Shown: in pieces, positions 8,590-51,074 of the stretch | How the letters are laid out: each line of letters begins with the position of its first letter | How positions within the stretch are numbered: the stretch's first letter is position 1 | The notes under the pieces: model-generated | What the model saw: the letters and a program-made list of their open reading frames with translations, nothing else | Databases searched by the model: none | What the model was told of the DNA's origin: nothing | Made by a program: the position numbers and the translations under genes | From: Anaeromyxobacteraceae bacterium | GTDB lineage: Bacteria > Myxococcota > Myxococcia > Myxococcales > Anaeromyxobacteraceae | DNA length: 64,000 nucleotides | NCBI GenBank assembly: GCA_047602405.1 | Contig: JASGHJ010000001.1 | Location: forward strand, 1,024,001-1,088,000 | Direction: 5' to 3'

Positions 8590-9654
8590 ATGTCCCTCCC
8601 CCGCGTCGCGATCAGCCTCGGCGATCCCTCCGGCATCGGCGCGGAGGTGACGGCCGCGGCGCTCGCGCGCGTGCGCGGCGAGTGCACGCCGGTGGTCTAC
8701 GGCGATCTGGGCCTCTTCCGGCGCTGGTTCGCGGAGCTCACGGTGCCGGTGCTCGCGCGCGGCGCGGCACCCGGGCGCTCGGGCGGGCTCGTGCCGGTGA
8801 CCGAGCTCGCCGCGAAGGACGCCCGGCCCGGGAAGCCGACGCGCGCAGGGGCCGGGGCGCAGGTCGCCTACCTCGAGCGCGCGTTCGACGCGGTGACGCG
8901 TGGCGAGGCCGACGCGCTCGTGACCGCACCGGTGTCGAAGGCGCAGGTCGCGCGGGTCCTGCCCGGATTCGTCGGGCACACCGAGTGGCTGGAGGCGCGG
9001 GCTCCCTCGGCTCCGCGTCCCTCGTCTCCGGGCTCGCTGCGCGAGCCCTACGCTCGGGACGAACGGAGGCCCCGATCGGTGATGATGCTCGCCGGCGAGC
9101 GCCTGCGGATCGCGCTCGTCACGAACCACGTCGCGCTCGCGCGGCTGCCCCGGCTGCTCACCCCGGCGCGGATCGCAGGGACGATCGGCATCACCTTCCG
9201 CGCGCTGCGCGACGACTTCGGGATCCGGAGGCCGCGGCTCGCGCTCGCCGCGTTCAACCCGCACGCGGGCGAGGAGGGCACCTTCGGCGACGAGGAGGCC
9301 CGCGTGCTCGCGCCTGCGCTCGCGCTCGCGAGGAAGGCGGGCACGCCGGCGGCGGGGCCGTTCCCGGCCGACTCGGTCTTCTTCCGCGCCGCGCTCGGCG
9401 AGTTCGATGCGGTGGTCGCGCTCTACCACGACCAGGGGCTCATCCCGGTGAAGCTCCTCGACGCGGTCGGCGGCGACCCCGCGGTGAACGTGACGCTCGG
9501 GCTGCCCTTCGTGCGCACGAGCCCGGACCACGGCGTCGCCTACGGCCTCGCCGGCAAGGGCGAGGCCTCGGCCGACTCGATGGTCGCGGCGATCCGGCTC
9601 GCGATCCGGATGGCCGAGGTCAGGGCGGCGCGAGCGCGCGCGGCCAGACGCTGA
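8590..9654 (+). CDS. pdxA: 4-hydroxythreonine-4-phosphate dehydrogenase, carrying an in-frame repeat insertion
   Basis: GDPSGIGAE, GHTE, NPHAGE, YHDQGLIPVK, RTSPDHG motifs. Confidence 0.93.
   Translation: MSLPRVAISLGDPSGIGAEVTAAALARVRGECTPVVYGDLGLFRRWFAELTVPVLARGAAPGRSGGLVPVTELAAKDARPGKPTRAGAGAQVAYLERAFDAVTRGEADALVTAPVSKAQVARVLPGFVGHTEWLEARAPSAPRPSSPGSLREPYARDERRPRSVMMLAGERLRIALVTNHVALARLPRLLTPARIAGTIGITFRALRDDFGIRRPRLALAAFNPHAGEEGTFGDEEARVLAPALALARKAGTPAAGPFPADSVFFRAALGEFDAVVALYHDQGLIPVKLLDAVGGDPAVNVTLGLPFVRTSPDHGVAYGLAGKGEASADSMVAAIRLAIRMAEVRAARARAARR
9011..9068 (+). repeat. Palindromic REP-like repeat family A, copy inside pdxA
   Basis: cgtccctcgtctccg-[ggctcgc hairpin gcgagcc]-ctacgctcgggacgaacgg. 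Confidence 0.85.
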
Positions 9655-19728: not shown

Positions 19729-19742
19729 CTTGGATCCGCCCA

Positions 19743-19784
19743 CCCCGAGCGTAGCCCCGCCGGAGGCGGGGCGGAGTCGAGGGG
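19743..19784 (-). repeat. Repeat family A copy downstream of gyrA
   Basis: Reverse complement reads cccctcgactccg-[ccccgcc hairpin ggcgggg]-ctacgctcgggg. Confidence 0.8.
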
Positions 19785-28385: not shown

Positions 28386-28432
28386 CGTTCACCTAACGTG
28401 AACGCCTTCGCTCCGATGGGGCGAAGAACCGA

Positions 28433-28478
28433 CCGTCCCGAGCGTAGGCCCGCGCAGCGGGCCGGAGACGAGGGACGG
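28433..28478 (-). repeat. Repeat family A copy downstream of bactofilin
   Basis: Reverse complement reads ccgtccctcgtctccggcccgctgcgcgggcctacgctcgggacgg. Confidence 0.85.
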
Positions 28479-32397: not shown

Positions 32398-32441
32398 CGC
32401 CCCTCGGCTTCGGGCCGCTTCGCGGCCCTACGCTCGGGGCG
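32398..32441 (+). repeat. Repeat family A copy
   Basis: cgcccctcggcttcgggccgcttcgcggccctacgctcggggcg. Confidence 0.85.
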
Positions 32442-32476
32442 CACGGAGGAACGGAGGGAACCGAGGGAACCGCCCC

Positions 32477-46280: not shown

Positions 46281-47095
46281 TCGCGCTCTGCCAGCGCGCG
46301 GCCGGCTCCTGCGGCGCGTGCTGCGGCCTCTACAACGCGCACGACCTCTCCCGCGACCGGCTCCGGGCGGAGCTCCGGCGGAGGACCGCGCGCGTCGCCG
46401 CCGCGCCGCGCACGCTCGAGGGCTTCCGGGCGGCCGCGGCCGACCTCGCGCCGGGCCTGCCCGAGCCGCTCTTCCCGTCGGTGCGGGTGTGCGCGCTGCT
46501 CGGGTTCCTCGATGCGGCGGAGACCCGCGTGGGCTGCCTCGCGCACCCGCTCTCGACGCGCGCGGCCGGCGACGCTCGAGGCCCAGATCTCCGTGACGCC
46601 GGCGTCTACGACGCCGGCATCTGCGAGTCGTTCCTCTGCCCGAGCCACTCCTGGCTCAACGAGGAGGAGGCCACGCTCGTCGAGCTCGCGGCCGGCGACT
46701 TTCACCTCTACGGCCTCGTCGTCACCGACGTGCCGTTCTTCAGGGCCTGCCTCGCCGGCGTCGCCGCGCGGGCGGGCGAGGCGGTCCGCGCGCGGCACCT
46801 CGCGCACGCGCCGTTCGCGGCGGCGCTCCGGCGCCTCCTCGCGCTGAAGGAGGAGCTCGCCCCCGGCTCCGACGGCCTCTTCGGCGCGTTCGAGCCCGCG
46901 CCGGACGGTGGCGAGGCGCCCCGGCACATCGACTACGAGGCCCTGGGCCGCCCTGCGTCGCCGTACGACGAGATCCTGCTCTGCGCCGGCGCGGATCCCC
47001 GGAGCGGCAACGACCTCGACGCGCTCGAGGCCGAGGTCGTGCGCCGGCTGGACGGGGCGGTGCGGGCGTTTCCCGCGCCCCCCGCCCGTCCTTAA
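46277..47095 (+). CDS. Cys-rich hypothetical protein (possible Zn/Fe-S binding)
   Basis: SCGACCGLYN, VCALLG, GCLAHP, ICESFLCPSH; ATGA overlap with upstream gene. Confidence 0.75.
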   Translation: MIALCQRAAGSCGACCGLYNAHDLSRDRLRAELRRRTARVAAAPRTLEGFRAAAADLAPGLPEPLFPSVRVCALLGFLDAAETRVGCLAHPLSTRAAGDARGPDLRDAGVYDAGICESFLCPSHSWLNEEEATLVELAAGDFHLYGLVVTDVPFFRACLAGVAARAGEAVRARHLAHAPFAAALRRLLALKEELAPGSDGLFGAFEPAPDGGEAPRHIDYEALGRPASPYDEILLCAGADPRSGNDLDALEAEVVRRLDGAVRAFPAPPARP

Positions 47096-47107
47096 CGTTG
47101 GGATGAG

Positions 47108-48073
47108 ATGGGGCTCATCCGTCGGCTCGTGGACGAGCCGGGCGCGGACTCGCCCGTGGAGTACGCCCGGAGGGTGGGCGCCCTCGCGGTCCTGTACCCG
47201 CTCGTCACCCTGGGGGCGCTCGCGGGCGAGCTCCTGCTGGGCCTCCGCGTCCGCCTGCTCGTGACGCTCGCGCAGCGCTCCAACGTCGAGACGCTCACCC
47301 TCGCCTTCTTCGCGGTCTTCTTCGCCTACGTAGGGGTGCTCGCGGGCCGGGGCGCGCCGGGCGCACTCCGCGTGCTGGCCTGGCGTGCGCTCGCCCGGCT
47401 CCATGGGCGGGAGGCGACCGAGCGTGCGCGGCACCGCGCCCTCCGCCCGGCCTGCGGGGAGGGGCCGTTCGTGGCGCTCAACGTGGTGCTCGAGCGGCCG
47501 GGGCGCCCGGGCGCGCCGTTCTCCCTGCCGGTGGAGGACGCCGCCGGCCGCATCGGCCACCTCGAGGTGGACGGCGCCTGCGTCCGCGACCGGCCGGAGC
47601 GGCAGGACGGCTCGACCAACCTGCTCGCGTTCTTCGCGCGGCAGGTCTCGTCGCTCGCGCCCGCCCCCGGCGGCCGCGGGGTGGACGTGGTCGCCTGGGG
47701 GACCCTCGACGACGACCAGACCCGCGCCTACCTCGCGCAGGTGGACTTCGCGCGAAACCTCGGCGCCGCCCTGGGCCACGAGGGGCTCTGGCCGCGGGTC
47801 GTGCTCGACGACGCGCAGGTGGCGGAGCTCGGGCGCCGGATCGCCGCGATCTGTCCGGCGCTCCGCGAGGAGGCCCAGCTGCCGCACTGGGAGTACGAGG
47901 CGGAGCACAAGCTGCCCATCGTGCCGGAGCCGCTCGGGCTCGCGAGCCTCGGCCGCACCGAGCGGCGCGCCGACCCGCTGCCTGCGCTCGCCGCGCTCAC
48001 CTGGGCGGTCTTCACCGCGCTCGGGATCCTGGTGGCGGTGACGGTCGCCCCGCCCTGGGTGCCGGGGAAGTGA
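47108..48073 (+). CDS. Hypothetical membrane protein
   Basis: Three hydrophobic segments. Confidence 0.65.
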   Translation: MGLIRRLVDEPGADSPVEYARRVGALAVLYPLVTLGALAGELLLGLRVRLLVTLAQRSNVETLTLAFFAVFFAYVGVLAGRGAPGALRVLAWRALARLHGREATERARHRALRPACGEGPFVALNVVLERPGRPGAPFSLPVEDAAGRIGHLEVDGACVRDRPERQDGSTNLLAFFARQVSSLAPAPGGRGVDVVAWGTLDDDQTRAYLAQVDFARNLGAALGHEGLWPRVVLDDAQVAELGRRIAAICPALREEAQLPHWEYEAEHKLPIVPEPLGLASLGRTERRADPLPALAALTWAVFTALGILVAVTVAPPWVPGK

Positions 48074-48411
48074 CCGTGGCTCGGCGCGCGCTCCTGCCGC
48101 TCCTCTGCGGCCTCCTCCTCGCCGCCCTCTACGCGCGCGGCTGCGCCGGCCCGAGGCCCGAGCTCGTGTTCGTCGCGCTCTCGCCGGCGCCGGACGGCGG
48201 CGCCGTCCCCACCGCGCGGGTGCGGAACCGCGGAGGCACGGGGGAGGTCGAGGTGCGCTTCCGGCTCCGCGAGGTGGTGGGCGCTCGCGTCGTCGCGGCC
48301 GAGGCGAACGGGGAGGTCGAGGCGGGCGAGACCGTCGAGCTCCGGGCCGCCGAGCGGGCTCCGCCGGGGCGCTGGACGGTCAGCGCCGAGGTGGAGTACC
48401 CGCCGGAGTGA
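48070..48411 (+). CDS. Hypothetical membrane-anchored protein
   Basis: GTGA coupling, N-terminal hydrophobic helix, beta-rich remainder. Confidence 0.6.
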   Translation: MTVARRALLPLLCGLLLAALYARGCAGPRPELVFVALSPAPDGGAVPTARVRNRGGTGEVEVRFRLREVVGARVVAAEANGEVEAGETVELRAAERAPPGRWTVSAEVEYPPE

Positions 48412-48423
48412 GCGGCGGCCGGG

Positions 48424-48452
48424 TTGATTCCTGATATCCAGTTGGATATAAG
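48424..48452 (+). promoter_or_regulatory. TA operon promoter with overlapping operator palindrome
   Basis: TTGATT-N17-TATAAG; ATATCCA-GT-TGGATAT at 48434-48449. Confidence 0.7.
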
Positions 48453-48460
48453 CCCACCTC

Positions 48461-48775
48461 GTGTTCGAGGTGCGCTTCTACTCGACCGAAGCGGCCCGGT
48501 CGCAGCCGACCGACTTCCTCGGTTCGTTGCCTGCCCGTGATCGGGCGCAGGTCGTGGCGGACATCGCAGCGCTCCGGGATCACGGACTGCAGGCGCCGAT
48601 CTCCATGAAGCCGATCAAGGGGCGCCAGAACCGGGGCATGTTCGAGATTCGAACGGGAGGATTCCGCACGCTCTTCTGCCAGCGCAGCGGGGTGGTCTGG
48701 ATCCTCCACATCTGTCGCAAGCAGGATCAGGACGCGGGCATCGAGGCGGCCAGCGCAAGGATGAAGAGGCTCTGA
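48461..48775 (+). CDS. Type II TA toxin, RelE/HigB (Gp49-like)
   Basis: 104 aa, MKPIKG, GMFEIR..GFR, WILHICRK; toxin-first order. Confidence 0.8.
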   Translation: MFEVRFYSTEAARSQPTDFLGSLPARDRAQVVADIAALRDHGLQAPISMKPIKGRQNRGMFEIRTGGFRTLFCQRSGVVWILHICRKQDQDAGIEAASARMKRL

Positions 48776-48776
48776 G

Positions 48777-49184
48777 ATGAGGAAGACGACAAGGCCGGCG
48801 AAGCGAACGCCGAAGGCGAAGCGCCCGGGCGGGGTGGGGCTGGACGCGTACCTCGGTCAGCAGCTCGAGGATCCCGGCTTCCGTCACGCGTACGAGCAGC
48901 GGCGGCTCGTTCACGAGGTGGCCATCGTGGTCCGCAGCATGCGTGAGCAGGCCGGGCTCACCCAGGCGCAGCTCGCGAAGCTGGTGGGCGTCAGCCAGCC
49001 GATGATCGCCCGCATGGAGCGCGGCCTCGATCAGCGGACGCCGCGCTGGGAGACGTTGCGGAAGATCGGCCGGGCGCTCGGAAAGCAGCTGAAGCTCTCG
49101 TTCGTCGATGCGGACGGAGACGAGGCGCTCGTGGAGGTGGACGGGATGCCGGTGCGCCGTGCCGAGGCTTCGCAGCGAACCTAG
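48777..49184 (+). CDS. XRE-family HTH antitoxin (HigA-like)
   Basis: REQAGLTQAQLAKLVGVSQPMIARMERG. Confidence 0.85.
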   Translation: MRKTTRPAKRTPKAKRPGGVGLDAYLGQQLEDPGFRHAYEQRRLVHEVAIVVRSMREQAGLTQAQLAKLVGVSQPMIARMERGLDQRTPRWETLRKIGRALGKQLKLSFVDADGDEALVEVDGMPVRRAEASQRT

Positions 49185-49434
49185 AGCGCGAGGCGTCCCT
49201 TCAGGGACATCACCGGTGATGTCCCCGCGGGGTTGCGGTCCTCGTGGAGTCGATGGCGTCGCTCGAGCTCCGTCCGTCCGGAGACGACGGCCGGAAGCGA
49301 GGGCCCTGCGCGTCACGGCCTGGAGGCGCGCCCTGGCGGCGTGGGCGGTCTCGGTCCTGTTCGTGCTCGCGGGCCTGTGGGCTTTCGGGGAGCGGTTCCG
49401 GTCTTGAGCCCGGGATTCGTTCCAGGATCGGGTG

Positions 49435-49471
49435 CGTCCCTCGTCTTCGGGCCGCTGCGCGGCCCTACGCT
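49435..49471 (+). repeat. Repeat family A copy, left part (interrupted by IS110; right part 51026-51039)
   Basis: cgtccctcgtcttcgggccgctgcgcggccctacgCT | IS | CTcgggacgaacgg. Confidence 0.88.
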
Positions 49472-49488
49472 GCTTCGAAATGCCGGGG

Positions 49489-50743
49489 TTAGGAGGTGAC
49501 CGCCTCGGGTGTCTGTGAGGTGACGGTCACGCTATAGCCGAGGCGCTCAAGGCGGCGAACGAGGTTCTTGGCGACGCGCTTTTCGTCGACCCGGTCGAGG
49601 TAGGTGTCCCCGAGGTCCTCGTACGGCACGTGTTTCGTGAGGATTCTCATAGGCAGCGTTGAGGATCTTGTGGGCGATGGCGAAGGTGGCTCGCTTGTGT
49701 CCTCGGCGGGCCTTGAGGCGGAAGTACTTGTCTCGCAGGTAGGTCTTCTTGGTGCGGATGGCTGCGCCGGCAGCCTCGACCAGGGTCGACCGGAGGTGAA
49801 CGTTCCCCTTCCGCGAACGCCCGGAGCGCCGCTTCCCGGCCGATTCGTCGTTCCCGGGGCAGACGCCAGCCCAACTCGCCAGGTGGCGCGGGCCGCCGAA
49901 GACGGACATGTCGGGGCCGATCTCAGCGAGAAGTGACGCGCTGGTCTGGACCTTCACGCCCGGGATCGTCGAAAGCAGCTTGACCTGCTCGCGATAGGGC
50001 TCGAGTCGGCGCTCGATCTCCCTCTCTAGCGTGTCGACGTCGCGGTCAGCAGCGTCGAGCCGGTCGAGCTGTAGCCGCAACATGTACCGGTGGTGATCGC
50101 GGAGCCGGCCGTCGAGGGCGGCCTCGAGCTCGGGGATCTTCTTACGTAGGAGCCCTTCGGCGAGCTTCGCGAGGTTGCGCGGGTCGGATTCGCCATCGGC
50201 CATCGCTCGCAGCATCGCCATGCCAGACTTGCCAAAGACATCCGAGGCAACGCTTGCGAGCTTCACGTTCGCGGTCTCGAGGACCTTCTGTAGTCGATTG
50301 CGCTCGGACGTCCGGGCCTGGACGACCGAGCGTCGGTACCGAACGAGGTCCCGTAGGTCGCGAAGGTAGAGCGGCGGCACGTAGCTCTTGCGGATCAGCC
50401 CCATCCTCACGAGTCGGGCGATCCACTCCGAGTCCTTCACGTCCGTCTTGCGGCCTGGGACGTTCTTCATGTGCTGCGCGTTGCCAACGACGAGCTCGAG
50501 CTCGCCCGCCGACTCCAGCACCGCGTAAACGGGCTTCCAGTAGACGCCCGTGCTCTCCATGGCCACGTGCGTGACGTGCTCCTCGCGCAGCCACTCCACG
50601 AGCGCCAGCAAGTCGCGCGTGAACGTCGAGAACTCCCTCACGCACTTGCGCAGCCTGGAGCCCTCTCCCAGCAGCACGCAGGCCGTCACTTGCTCCTTGT
50701 GAACGTCGAGTCCACAGACCCGATCGACAACGATTCCTTCCAT
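49489..50743 (-). CDS. IS110 DEDD recombinase/transposase (one extra base at ~49644)
   Basis: GLDVHK, MESTG, RKTDVKD (D-E-D-D), C-terminal CPGNDESAG; GGAGG RBS; tail ILTKHVPYEDLG...LERLGYSV in a shifted frame. Confidence 0.93.
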
Positions 50744-50779
50744 GACCACCTCCGGGGAAGGAGGCGGTCGCTGCGCCGC

Positions 50780-50995
50780 GGGGTAGCTTCTAGGACACTG
50801 CTTCACGCCCTTCCCAGGCATGCATCTGCCCAGGTACGGCACACCGTGGTACCCATTCGCAGCGCGGGCCGGTCTCGGGGACGGGGTTCCTGGCAGGACC
50901 GCCGAACGTAGCAACGGCCTTCTGAGCGACCACCTCCGAGGTCGATCGCTACACCGGGACCGCCCGCGCGCTCAACCAACGGCAGGCATTTCATG
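50780..50995 (-). ncRNA. Candidate IS110 bridge RNA (ends approximate)
   Basis: Non-coding end upstream of the recombinase with nested stems whose internal loops match target and donor sites (see findings). Confidence 0.65.
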
Positions 50996-51074
50996 CCCCC
51001 CGGTGGACGTGTCCGTCCATGAGGTCTCGGGACGAACGGGAGTTGACCTTCCCCGTTCGCCCCGACCGCAGCCC

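What the first reader, a model, noticed from the sequence alone, without database searches (positions are those of the whole stretch)
49462..51039. IS110 inserted precisely at a CT core within a dispersed palindromic repeat
Removing 49472-51025 plus one CT restores GCCCTACG-CT-CGGGACGAACGG, which is identical over 22 bp to the uninterrupted copy at 9045-9066. This gives exact ends, the core and the predicted circle junction (CCATGAGGT-CT-GCTTCGAA). It parallels IS621 targeting enterobacterial REPs but with a different repeat family. Four other copies in this window (9011, 19743, 28433, 32398) carry an intact CTACGCTCGGG site.
Basis: partly seen in the sequence, partly recalled or inferred. Interest (0 to 1): 0.72.

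Follow-up and report, generated by a model that had tools for sequence, protein, structure and literature searches.

The report
Jumping gene aimed at hairpin repeats
All four copies of this jumping gene (an IS110) sit at the same two bases inside a hairpin repeat present about 190 times in the genome, likely steered by a built-in guide RNA that is predicted to read its DNA sites on the opposite strand, relative to the gene, from the well-studied IS621.

Summary
Confirmed. A 1,554-bp IS110 (49472-51025) lies between two CT cores inside a dispersed hairpin repeat. All 4 genomic copies use the same site. A close relative has the intact empty repeat at 2 of the 4 orthologous loci. The 11-mer target occurs 176 times against 4.6 expected.

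The left end folds into a bridge-RNA-like target loop. Across 49 dereplicated relatives, three guides and one handshake pair covary with each element's own flanks. The geometry is IS621's, flipped relative to the transposase gene: the core reads AG in gene sense and the top-strand guide comes first, although the RNA lies upstream. The fourth guide was not found.

The repeat's densest cluster surrounds a small GIY-YIG gene. Repeat forms flank 14 of 14 close homologues and 0 of 16 paralogues, an Ssn/NTS-like layout.

All four transposase genes share one late frameshift, so activity is uncertain.

IS110 targeting of REP-like repeats is known (IS621, ISPpu10, Nf1). The flipped polarity was not found in the texts read. 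The scan noted Ssn-type repeats in other genomes, but not this IS.

The parts
49435..49469 (+). Left part of the target repeat: conserved arm, variable perfect hairpin (49450-49464), CTACG (49465-49469)
49470..49471 (+). CT core, left copy (reads AG in transposase sense)
49472..49488 (-). Short right end of the IS; its last bases match the donor guide; 8-bp subterminal inverted repeat arm at 49477-49484
49489..50743 (-). IS110 transposase gene (DEDD_Tnp_IS110 + Transposase_20; D13, E63, D101, D104, S301 present). +1 frameshift at 49644-49645: the reading ends at 49547 (398 aa), while close relatives have about 417 aa
50744..51025 (-). 282-bp non-coding left end holding the predicted bridge RNA; second arm of the subterminal repeat at 50985-50992
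50867..50919 (-). Predicted target-binding loop: base stem, first guide 50911-50905, apical stem 50904-50882, second guide 50880-50874, handshake pair 50873-50872
50769..50864 (-). Predicted donor-binding multiloop; donor guide 50805-50798 matches the element's right end plus core; partner guide not identified
51026..51039 (+). CT core (right copy, 51026-51027) and right arm of the target repeat
51051..51065 (-). Remnant of a second, inverted repeat copy; relative G010 has a full inverted pair here
9014..9066 (+). Uninterrupted repeat copy
19736..19784 (-). Uninterrupted repeat copy
28429..28475 (-). Uninterrupted repeat copy
32400..32446 (+). Uninterrupted repeat copy

Best explanation
This is an IS110 element of the long-transposase subgroup that sits, in all four genomic copies, at one CT inside an abundant hairpin repeat, and it likely gets there because an RNA predicted in its left end base-pairs with 12 bases of the repeat. 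Shown: the ends, the core, the four sites, empty orthologous sites, and covariation of three guides and one handshake pair with each relative's own flanks. Inferred from IS621 work: the element leaves as a circle joined at the core; the transposase-RNA complex pairs one loop with the target and one with the circle junction and swaps strands at the core. The guide map is IS621's (first guide, apical stem, second guide, core, handshake) only when the DNA is read on the strand opposite the gene, so the element lands in the reverse orientation relative to its CT core. Aiming at a mostly intergenic, roughly 190-copy repeat likely gives it many harmless landing sites. The repeat itself likely belongs to a small GIY-YIG nuclease gene, as in Ssn/NTS.
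For: 4 of 4 copies share ends and flanks. G010 has the intact repeat with one CT at 2 of 4 orthologous loci. A 91%-identical soil contig runs through the end at 51025 and 14 bases into the same flank. Among 49 dereplicated relatives: first guide against the reverse complement of the right flank 2.77/5 versus null 1.82+-0.16 (n=35); second guide against the left flank 4.5/6 versus 2.51+-0.15 (n=44); donor guide against the right end 4.37/5 versus 1.61+-0.19 (n=35); 0 of 5000 permutations reach any of these. The two IS621-order controls are at null. The 2 nt after the second guide equal the first 2 nt of the left end in 34 of 37 and 36 of 37 (null 17.5, 16.1), as handshake guides do (PMC11208158 passages). 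Target-loop stems pair in 45-49 of 49 at seven of eight positions, with compensatory changes in the base stem. Two plasmid elements outside the test set show the same second guide, handshake and donor guide. L125, the only other fetched locus in the same transposase clade (SH-aLRT 99, quick tree), sits at the equivalent CT of a related repeat in Acidobacteriota with changed guides. The model of an intact relative matches IS621 (Z 24.6, rmsd 3.0, 297 aligned).
Against: No RNA, circle or transposition was observed. The fourth guide gave no signal (best other z 3.6, within scan noise), and the donor-loop handshake is weak (16 and 15 of 35; 157 and 76 of 3000 permutations reach these). The first guide covaries least well and was not confirmed in the two plasmid elements. 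One base-stem position pairs in only 29 of 49, and the hairpin around the donor guide is not conserved as standard pairs. The whole left end folds only modestly better than shuffles (z -1.86). Guide columns were chosen after viewing the alignment. Right ends were found with a motif that mis-called some elements (for example L092 and L239), and these were kept in the counts. All four transposase genes are frameshifted and no intact copy is in the assembly. No sigma-70-like promoter lies in the linear element; the junction was not scanned.
Confidence: 0.85

Rival explanations
1. Sequence plus structure: the guide RNA is needed, but the hairpin just before the CT is also read, as reported for ISPpu10.
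For: All 4 occupied sites carry a hairpin of different sequence. 91% of 193 repeats have a perfect stem of 4 bp or more, against 3% after shuffling. All 4 sites have the RCGAACGG right-flank class, found in 46 of 193 repeats (P about 0.003, post hoc), which hints at recognition beyond the 12 guided bases. ISPpu10 precedent: bioRxiv 10.64898/2026.03.19.712850, sections 7-8.
Against: 190 of 225 sites within one mismatch of the guides already lie in the repeat, so 4 of 4 is expected about half the time without any hairpin effect. Here the guided bases lie outside the stem, whereas in ISPpu10 the stem includes the left target.
Confidence: 0.3
2. The four copies are dead relics: the insertions were guided as described, but the shared frameshift inactivated the enzyme and the copies were spread by an intact element now lost or unassembled.
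For: The frameshift at residue 368 removes about 14 residues shared with the IS621 fold and a further predicted helix (381-400). The 13 relatives aligned keep this region in frame. No other close transposase is in the assembly.
Against: All catalytic residues remain. The copies are about 99% identical and lie at four sites, which is simplest if the shifted form still moved. The site shows two alleles (3 and 1 copies), which could be an assembly artefact, although GATC and GANTC counts are at expectation genome-wide.
Confidence: 0.35
3. The site choice is made by the protein or by repeat-binding host factors, and the RNA matches are incidental.
For: Short subterminal inverted repeats (5-9 bp in 31 of 35, covarying) suggest that the protein reads the element ends; one donor guide is missing.
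Against: The guides change with the flanks across distant relatives and the controls are null.
Confidence: 0.05
4. The pattern is an assembly artefact: repeats collapsed or mis-joined onto IS ends.
For: No reads of this strain could be laid.
Against: Each copy has its own hairpin and outer flanks. The flanks are syntenic with empty sites in G010. An independent soil contig and L125 show the same junction type.
Confidence: 0.02

Closest known systems
IS621 / ISCro4 bridge recombinases (PMC11208160: passages, section 12, two supplement parts; PMC11208158: passages)
   Same: DEDD + Tnp fold (Z 24.6), long upstream non-coding end, 2-nt CT core, REP-like target, target loop with two guides and a handshake pair in the same order when read on the CT strand.
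   Different: About 417 aa against 326, 28% identity. The CT strand is antisense to the gene here, so the end of the right end is matched by a same-sense guide at the 3' side of the donor loop. Multiloop donor part, one donor guide undetected, asymmetric 8-bp subterminal repeat, different repeat family.
IS1111-group seekRNA elements (PMC11187229: passages and section 6)
   Same: [quoted passage not shown]
   Different: The non-coding region is upstream, not downstream. The transposase is 410-417 aa, not 330-350. The inverted repeat is short and 33 nt inside the left end.
ISPpu10 of Pseudomonas putida (bioRxiv 10.64898/2026.03.19.712850: abstract, sections 7-8)
   Same: IS110 at a CT in an intergenic REP with a hairpin on the 5' side.
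   Different: There the left target is part of the stem; here the guided bases begin at the foot of a sequence-variable hairpin. A hairpin role is untested here.
Neisseria Nf1 prophage IS110 integrase at dRS3 (PMC7058167: passages)
   Same: An IS110 enzyme inserts at a CT in a repeat of the family that flanks a small GIY-YIG gene (dRS3/NTS, PMC11893778).
   Different: A phage rather than a stand-alone IS; different repeat sequence. The enzymes were not compared.
Ssn nucleases with NTS/SRM repeats; CGTC-tagged REPs (PMC11893778: sections 6, 10, passages, Supp. Data 4 rows; PMC3733652: passages)
   Same: A single-domain GIY-YIG gene of about 100 aa flanked by the repeat; CGTC tag, hairpin and short tail; the published SRM pattern fits 22 of 193 copies.
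   Different: Extra conserved outer arms and a free-sequence inner hairpin; 171 of 193 copies are missed by the pattern. The four Anaeromyxobacter rows in that paper show no SRM enrichment (0.44-0.78-fold) and no strict cd10448 hit. The protein's solved relatives are UPF0213.

Membership tests
IS110 family | DEDD RuvC domain plus Tnp domain with catalytic serine | tested here: met
   PF01548 and PF02371; NF033542 293.6 bits, cut-off 140; D13, E63, D101, D104, S301
IS110 family | Insertion at a short core without long terminal inverted repeats | tested here: met
   2-nt core at 4 of 4 copies; single CT at empty orthologous sites
IS110 family | Non-coding end encodes guides for target and donor | tested here: met
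   Three guides and one handshake pair covary; fourth guide not found
IS110 family | RNA is made, binds the enzyme, and circles form | not testable with these tools
   No reads of this strain
IS110 group, IS621/ISEc21 type | Long non-coding region upstream of the gene | tested here: met
   282 bp upstream; 17 bp downstream of the in-frame stop
IS110 group, IS621/ISEc21 type | Bottom-strand match precedes top-strand match, with top strand = gene sense | tested here: not met
   Reverse order supported, IS621-order controls at null; published rule in PMC11187229
IS1111 group | Non-coding region downstream; 330-350 aa enzyme; 7-17 bp subterminal repeats near both ends | tested here: not met
   Upstream region, about 417 aa, 8-bp repeat 33 nt inside the left end
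IS1111 group | Top-strand complement first | tested here: met
GTAG REP / RAYT system (target repeat) | GTAG next to a hairpin; intergenic, often between convergent genes | tested here: met
   GTAG abuts the hairpin on the - strand. By crude ORF calls, 165 of 193 lie outside genes, 68 convergent against 13 divergent
GTAG REP / RAYT system (target repeat) | RAYT gene flanked by the repeat | tested here: not met
   0 of 6 weak Y1_Tnp loci carry the repeat within the fetched 3.2 kb
Ssn / SRM system (target repeat) | Small single-domain GIY-YIG gene flanked by the repeat | tested here: met
   8 copies around L206/L208; 10 of 14 close homologues with the long form and the other 4 with a short form; 0 of 16 paralogues
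Ssn / SRM system (target repeat) | Matches the published SRM pattern | tested here: inconclusive
   22 of 193 copies match, over the CGTC-hairpin-tail part
Ssn / SRM system (target repeat) | Protein belongs to cd10448 and cuts the repeat as single-stranded DNA | not testable with these tools
   No CDD search or SsnA sequence at hand; PDB hits are UPF0213; atlas gives only GIY-YIG

The most novel reading that the evidence does not exclude
A large, widespread IS110 subfamily uses a third bridge-RNA layout that breaks the published IS110/IS1111 rule: upstream RNA, AG core in gene sense, flipped strand polarity, and a donor recognised by one guide plus an asymmetric protein-read inverted repeat. 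One clade of it has specialised, across phyla, on a hairpin repeat family tied to a UPF0213-like GIY-YIG nuclease outside the described Ssn family.
Probability: 0.35. Interest if true: 0.7.

Novelty: new variant of a known kind. Interest (0 to 1): 0.5.

Why it matters
Bridge recombinases are being engineered as editors, and the design rules I read come from IS621-like and IS1111-like enzymes. A subfamily with thousands of related proteins (7,991 of 8,000 scored candidates at E below 1e-60; the layout was checked in 49) and a mirrored guide map needs different design rules, and pipelines that assume the IS621 order would misread it. The mapped guides make reprogramming directly testable. The target also links three layers of selfish DNA: a GIY-YIG gene, its dispersed hairpin repeat and an IS that parasitises the repeat. 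The variable hairpin is a natural test set for the claimed structural gate of ISPpu10.

Tried and rejected
RAYT as owner of the repeat: 6 weak Y1_Tnp hits, none with the repeat nearby. An earlier scan note places a TIRYT-like gene in this genome with a different repeat; not checked here.

Rfam: four matches, all far below gathering score.

Reads: one DNA run listed, no RNA holder listed. It does not cover the frameshift. A closer look at that contig's left end could not be obtained, so its guide bases are unknown.

Close relatives in the genus: none above 46% identity among 40 relatives. 9 of 400 phylum genomes have 46-58% relatives of P0002. Flanks of the closest proteins (P0002-P0030) could not be fetched.

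IS621-order guide assignment: null. Fourth guide scan: nothing.

Programmed frameshifting: close relatives are in frame and no slippery run is visible. A genome-wide GATC error: counts at expectation.

Promoter scan of the linear element: none.

The careful tree did not finish; only the quick tree was used.

Literature: ten full-text searches. 'bridge RNA + IS110 + AG core' gave 0 papers. 'Anaeromyxobacter + IS110 + repeat' gave 2 unrelated listings. Figures were not visible. Durrant Extended Data Fig. 10c (ISAar29, ISHne5), five of its seven supplements, Fig. S12 of bioRxiv 10.64898/2026.10.21.760802, other bioRxiv supplements and ISfinder were not seen and may already show this polarity or name this element. 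Files 13-14 of the Ssn paper were not searched.

Full report
Observation. The element spans 49472-51025 (1,554 bp) with CT on both sides. Removing it and one CT restores a 22-mer identical to 9045-9066. The window is G000:C1:1024001-1088000 of a 6.16-Mb, 74% GC genome in 2 contigs. I infer an Anaeromyxobacter-like myxobacterium; no call names it. The genome holds four full copies, about 99% identical, one with a 9-bp internal duplication, and 4 of 4 lie between CTACG-CT and CT-CGGG. In relative G010 (88-94% identical DNA around these loci), none of the four searches matched the IS part of the query. At 2 of 4 orthologous loci G010 has the intact repeat with one CT. At the third it lacks the repeat as well, and at the fourth the left flank is not orthologous. 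A soil contig 91% identical to the IS runs through 51025 and 14 bases into the same flank before diverging.

The target repeat. The exact 11-mer occurs 176 times against 4.6 expected. A broader pattern finds 193 repeats with two fixed arms around a hairpin of 116 different sequences. 91% have a perfect stem of 4 bp or more (3% when shuffled), and the outer arms covary (T-A 123, C-G 60 of 193). By crude ORF calls, 165 of 193 lie outside genes, 68 between convergent and 13 between divergent genes. The strict pattern occurs in 18 of 37 genus genomes, from 1 to 159 copies, with the reversed control at 0. One strand reads CGTC-hairpin, the other GTAG-hairpin, the two tags of PMC3733652 (passages), which says CGTC repeats lack a dedicated transposase. 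No Y1_Tnp locus carries the repeat (0 of 6). The densest cluster, 8 copies, surrounds a 102-aa stand-alone GIY-YIG gene. All 14 close homologues in the genus are flanked: 10 by the long form and 4 by a short form. None of the 16 paralogue loci is; three loose hits there are not family members. Only 14 of the 15 close matches came with a locus. A random 3.3-kb window of G000 holds a copy 9% of the time. This is the Ssn/NTS layout (PMC11893778, lead from earlier scan notes). The published SRM pattern fits only 22 of 193 copies, that paper's four Anaeromyxobacter rows show no enrichment and no strict cd10448 hit, and the protein's solved relatives are UPF0213. It works like Ssn/NTS in layout; membership is open.

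The element. The transposase is IS110 by Pfam and NCBIfam and keeps the catalytic residues. The model of the 93%-identical P0002 (pLDDT 80.7) matches IS621 over residues 7-380. Its length places it in the long subgroup described in PMC11187229 section 6. All four genes carry one extra base at 49644-49645, in two alleles, which replaces the last 49 or so residues. Whether this is real, and whether it stops activity, is undecided.

Guide RNA. The 282-bp left end folds into a stem, an internal loop and an apical stem, followed by a multiloop. From 176 fetched loci I kept those with at least 45% identity, at least 230 nt upstream and an exact anchor motif (61, counting this genome's element once), dropped one misaligned locus (L201) and dereplicated at 85% to 49. 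35 had a callable right end, 44 had enough left flank, and 37 had an accepted left start. The first guide tracks the reverse complement of the right flank, the second tracks the left flank, and the donor guide tracks the element's right end. Each exceeds all 5000 permutations, and both IS621-order controls sit at null. An unbiased column scan found that the 2 nt after the second guide copy the first 2 nt of the left end (34 and 36 of 37). That is the handshake geometry of PMC11208158 and of the IS621 guide map (supplement 7 of PMC11208160), read on the CT strand. For this element the guides cover CTACG, the core (one G-U pair) and CGGGG; three copies match fully and the window copy has one distal mismatch. 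Two plasmid elements fetched afterwards fit the second guide, handshake and donor guide, but not clearly the first guide. Multi-copy relatives whose ends are fixed by copy comparison also end in AG in gene sense (G083, L088/L089/L092). The second guide ends in AG in 40 and AA in 9 of 49. No fourth guide was found. A 5-9 bp inverted repeat joins a site about 33 nt inside the left end to one 5 nt inside the right end in 31 of 35, and covaries beyond its 4 fixed anchor bases (5.26 against 4.12). Relatedness can inflate such tests, but shuffling among kin raises the null rather than the signal.

Mechanism. Shown: a site-specific IS110 whose left end carries guides matched to its target and its own end. 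Inferred from IS621: excision to a circle, expression of the RNA, and strand exchange at the core with handshake pairing. The CT strand is antisense to the gene, so in gene sense the top-strand guide comes first. PMC11187229 assigns that order to IS1111 elements with a downstream RNA and the reverse to IS110 elements with an upstream RNA; this subfamily mixes the two. That paper notes exceptions in RNA position and possible further families, and PMC11208160 and bioRxiv 10.64898/2026.10.21.760802 report diverse structures in figures I could not see. Most relatives do not sit in this repeat. L125, the only other fetched locus in this clade, does, in another phylum and with altered guides. A hairpin requirement cannot be judged, because 190 of 225 near-matches to the guides already lie in the repeat.

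Comparison and verdict. IS110 insertion at CT in REP-like repeats is established for IS621, ISPpu10 and, for a GIY-YIG-linked repeat, the Nf1 phage enzyme at dRS3. The finding is real and of a known kind. What may be new is the flipped guide polarity of the subfamily, the single detectable donor guide, and the repeat-GIY-YIG class it targets. Other papers seen as passages only: bioRxiv 10.1101/2025.10.25.684509, 10.1101/2025.05.14.653916, 10.64898/2026.08.14.744561; none of those passages describes the flip. New variant of a known kind; interest 0.5.

Noticed in passing
L206:1417-1725 (-), G000:C1 about 1892790-1893097: Stand-alone 102-aa GIY-YIG gene with an inverted repeat copy behind its stop and a six-copy array of 82-bp period before its start; the same layout recurs across the genus.
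   Followed up: yes
L011-L014 (G000:C2 near 481085, 981128, 1994974, 2508892): A second IS110-family element in 4 copies with 13-bp or longer subterminal inverted repeats (IS1111-like), each between long related repeats that look like cassette recombination sites; the attC reading is recalled, not tested.
   Followed up: partly
window 47076-49430: Block absent at this place in relative G010; holds a Gp49-like/HTH toxin-antitoxin-type pair at 48461-49184 and ends at the repeat that holds the IS.
   Followed up: partly
G000:C1 near 1256500 against G010:C3 near 192100: The repeat itself is present in G000 and absent at the orthologous place in G010, and other nearby copies differ too, so the repeat is gained or lost between close relatives.
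   Followed up: partly
G000:C2:3676058-3676999: Tandem array of six or seven repeat copies with a period of about 157 bp; no neighbouring gene examined.
   Followed up: no
L286-L288 (Variovorax plasmid NZ_CP138516.1), L060, L182: Relatives of this IS form head-to-tail tandems; in the plasmid three copies are separated by short identical spacers.
   Followed up: no
G000:C2:3206833-3208395: This IS copy has an in-frame 9-bp duplication in the transposase gene.
   Followed up: no
window 49627-49655 and the same part of the other copies: 3 of the 8 single-base differences among the four copies cluster within 30 bp around the frameshift, a hint of local consensus error or gene conversion.
   Followed up: partly
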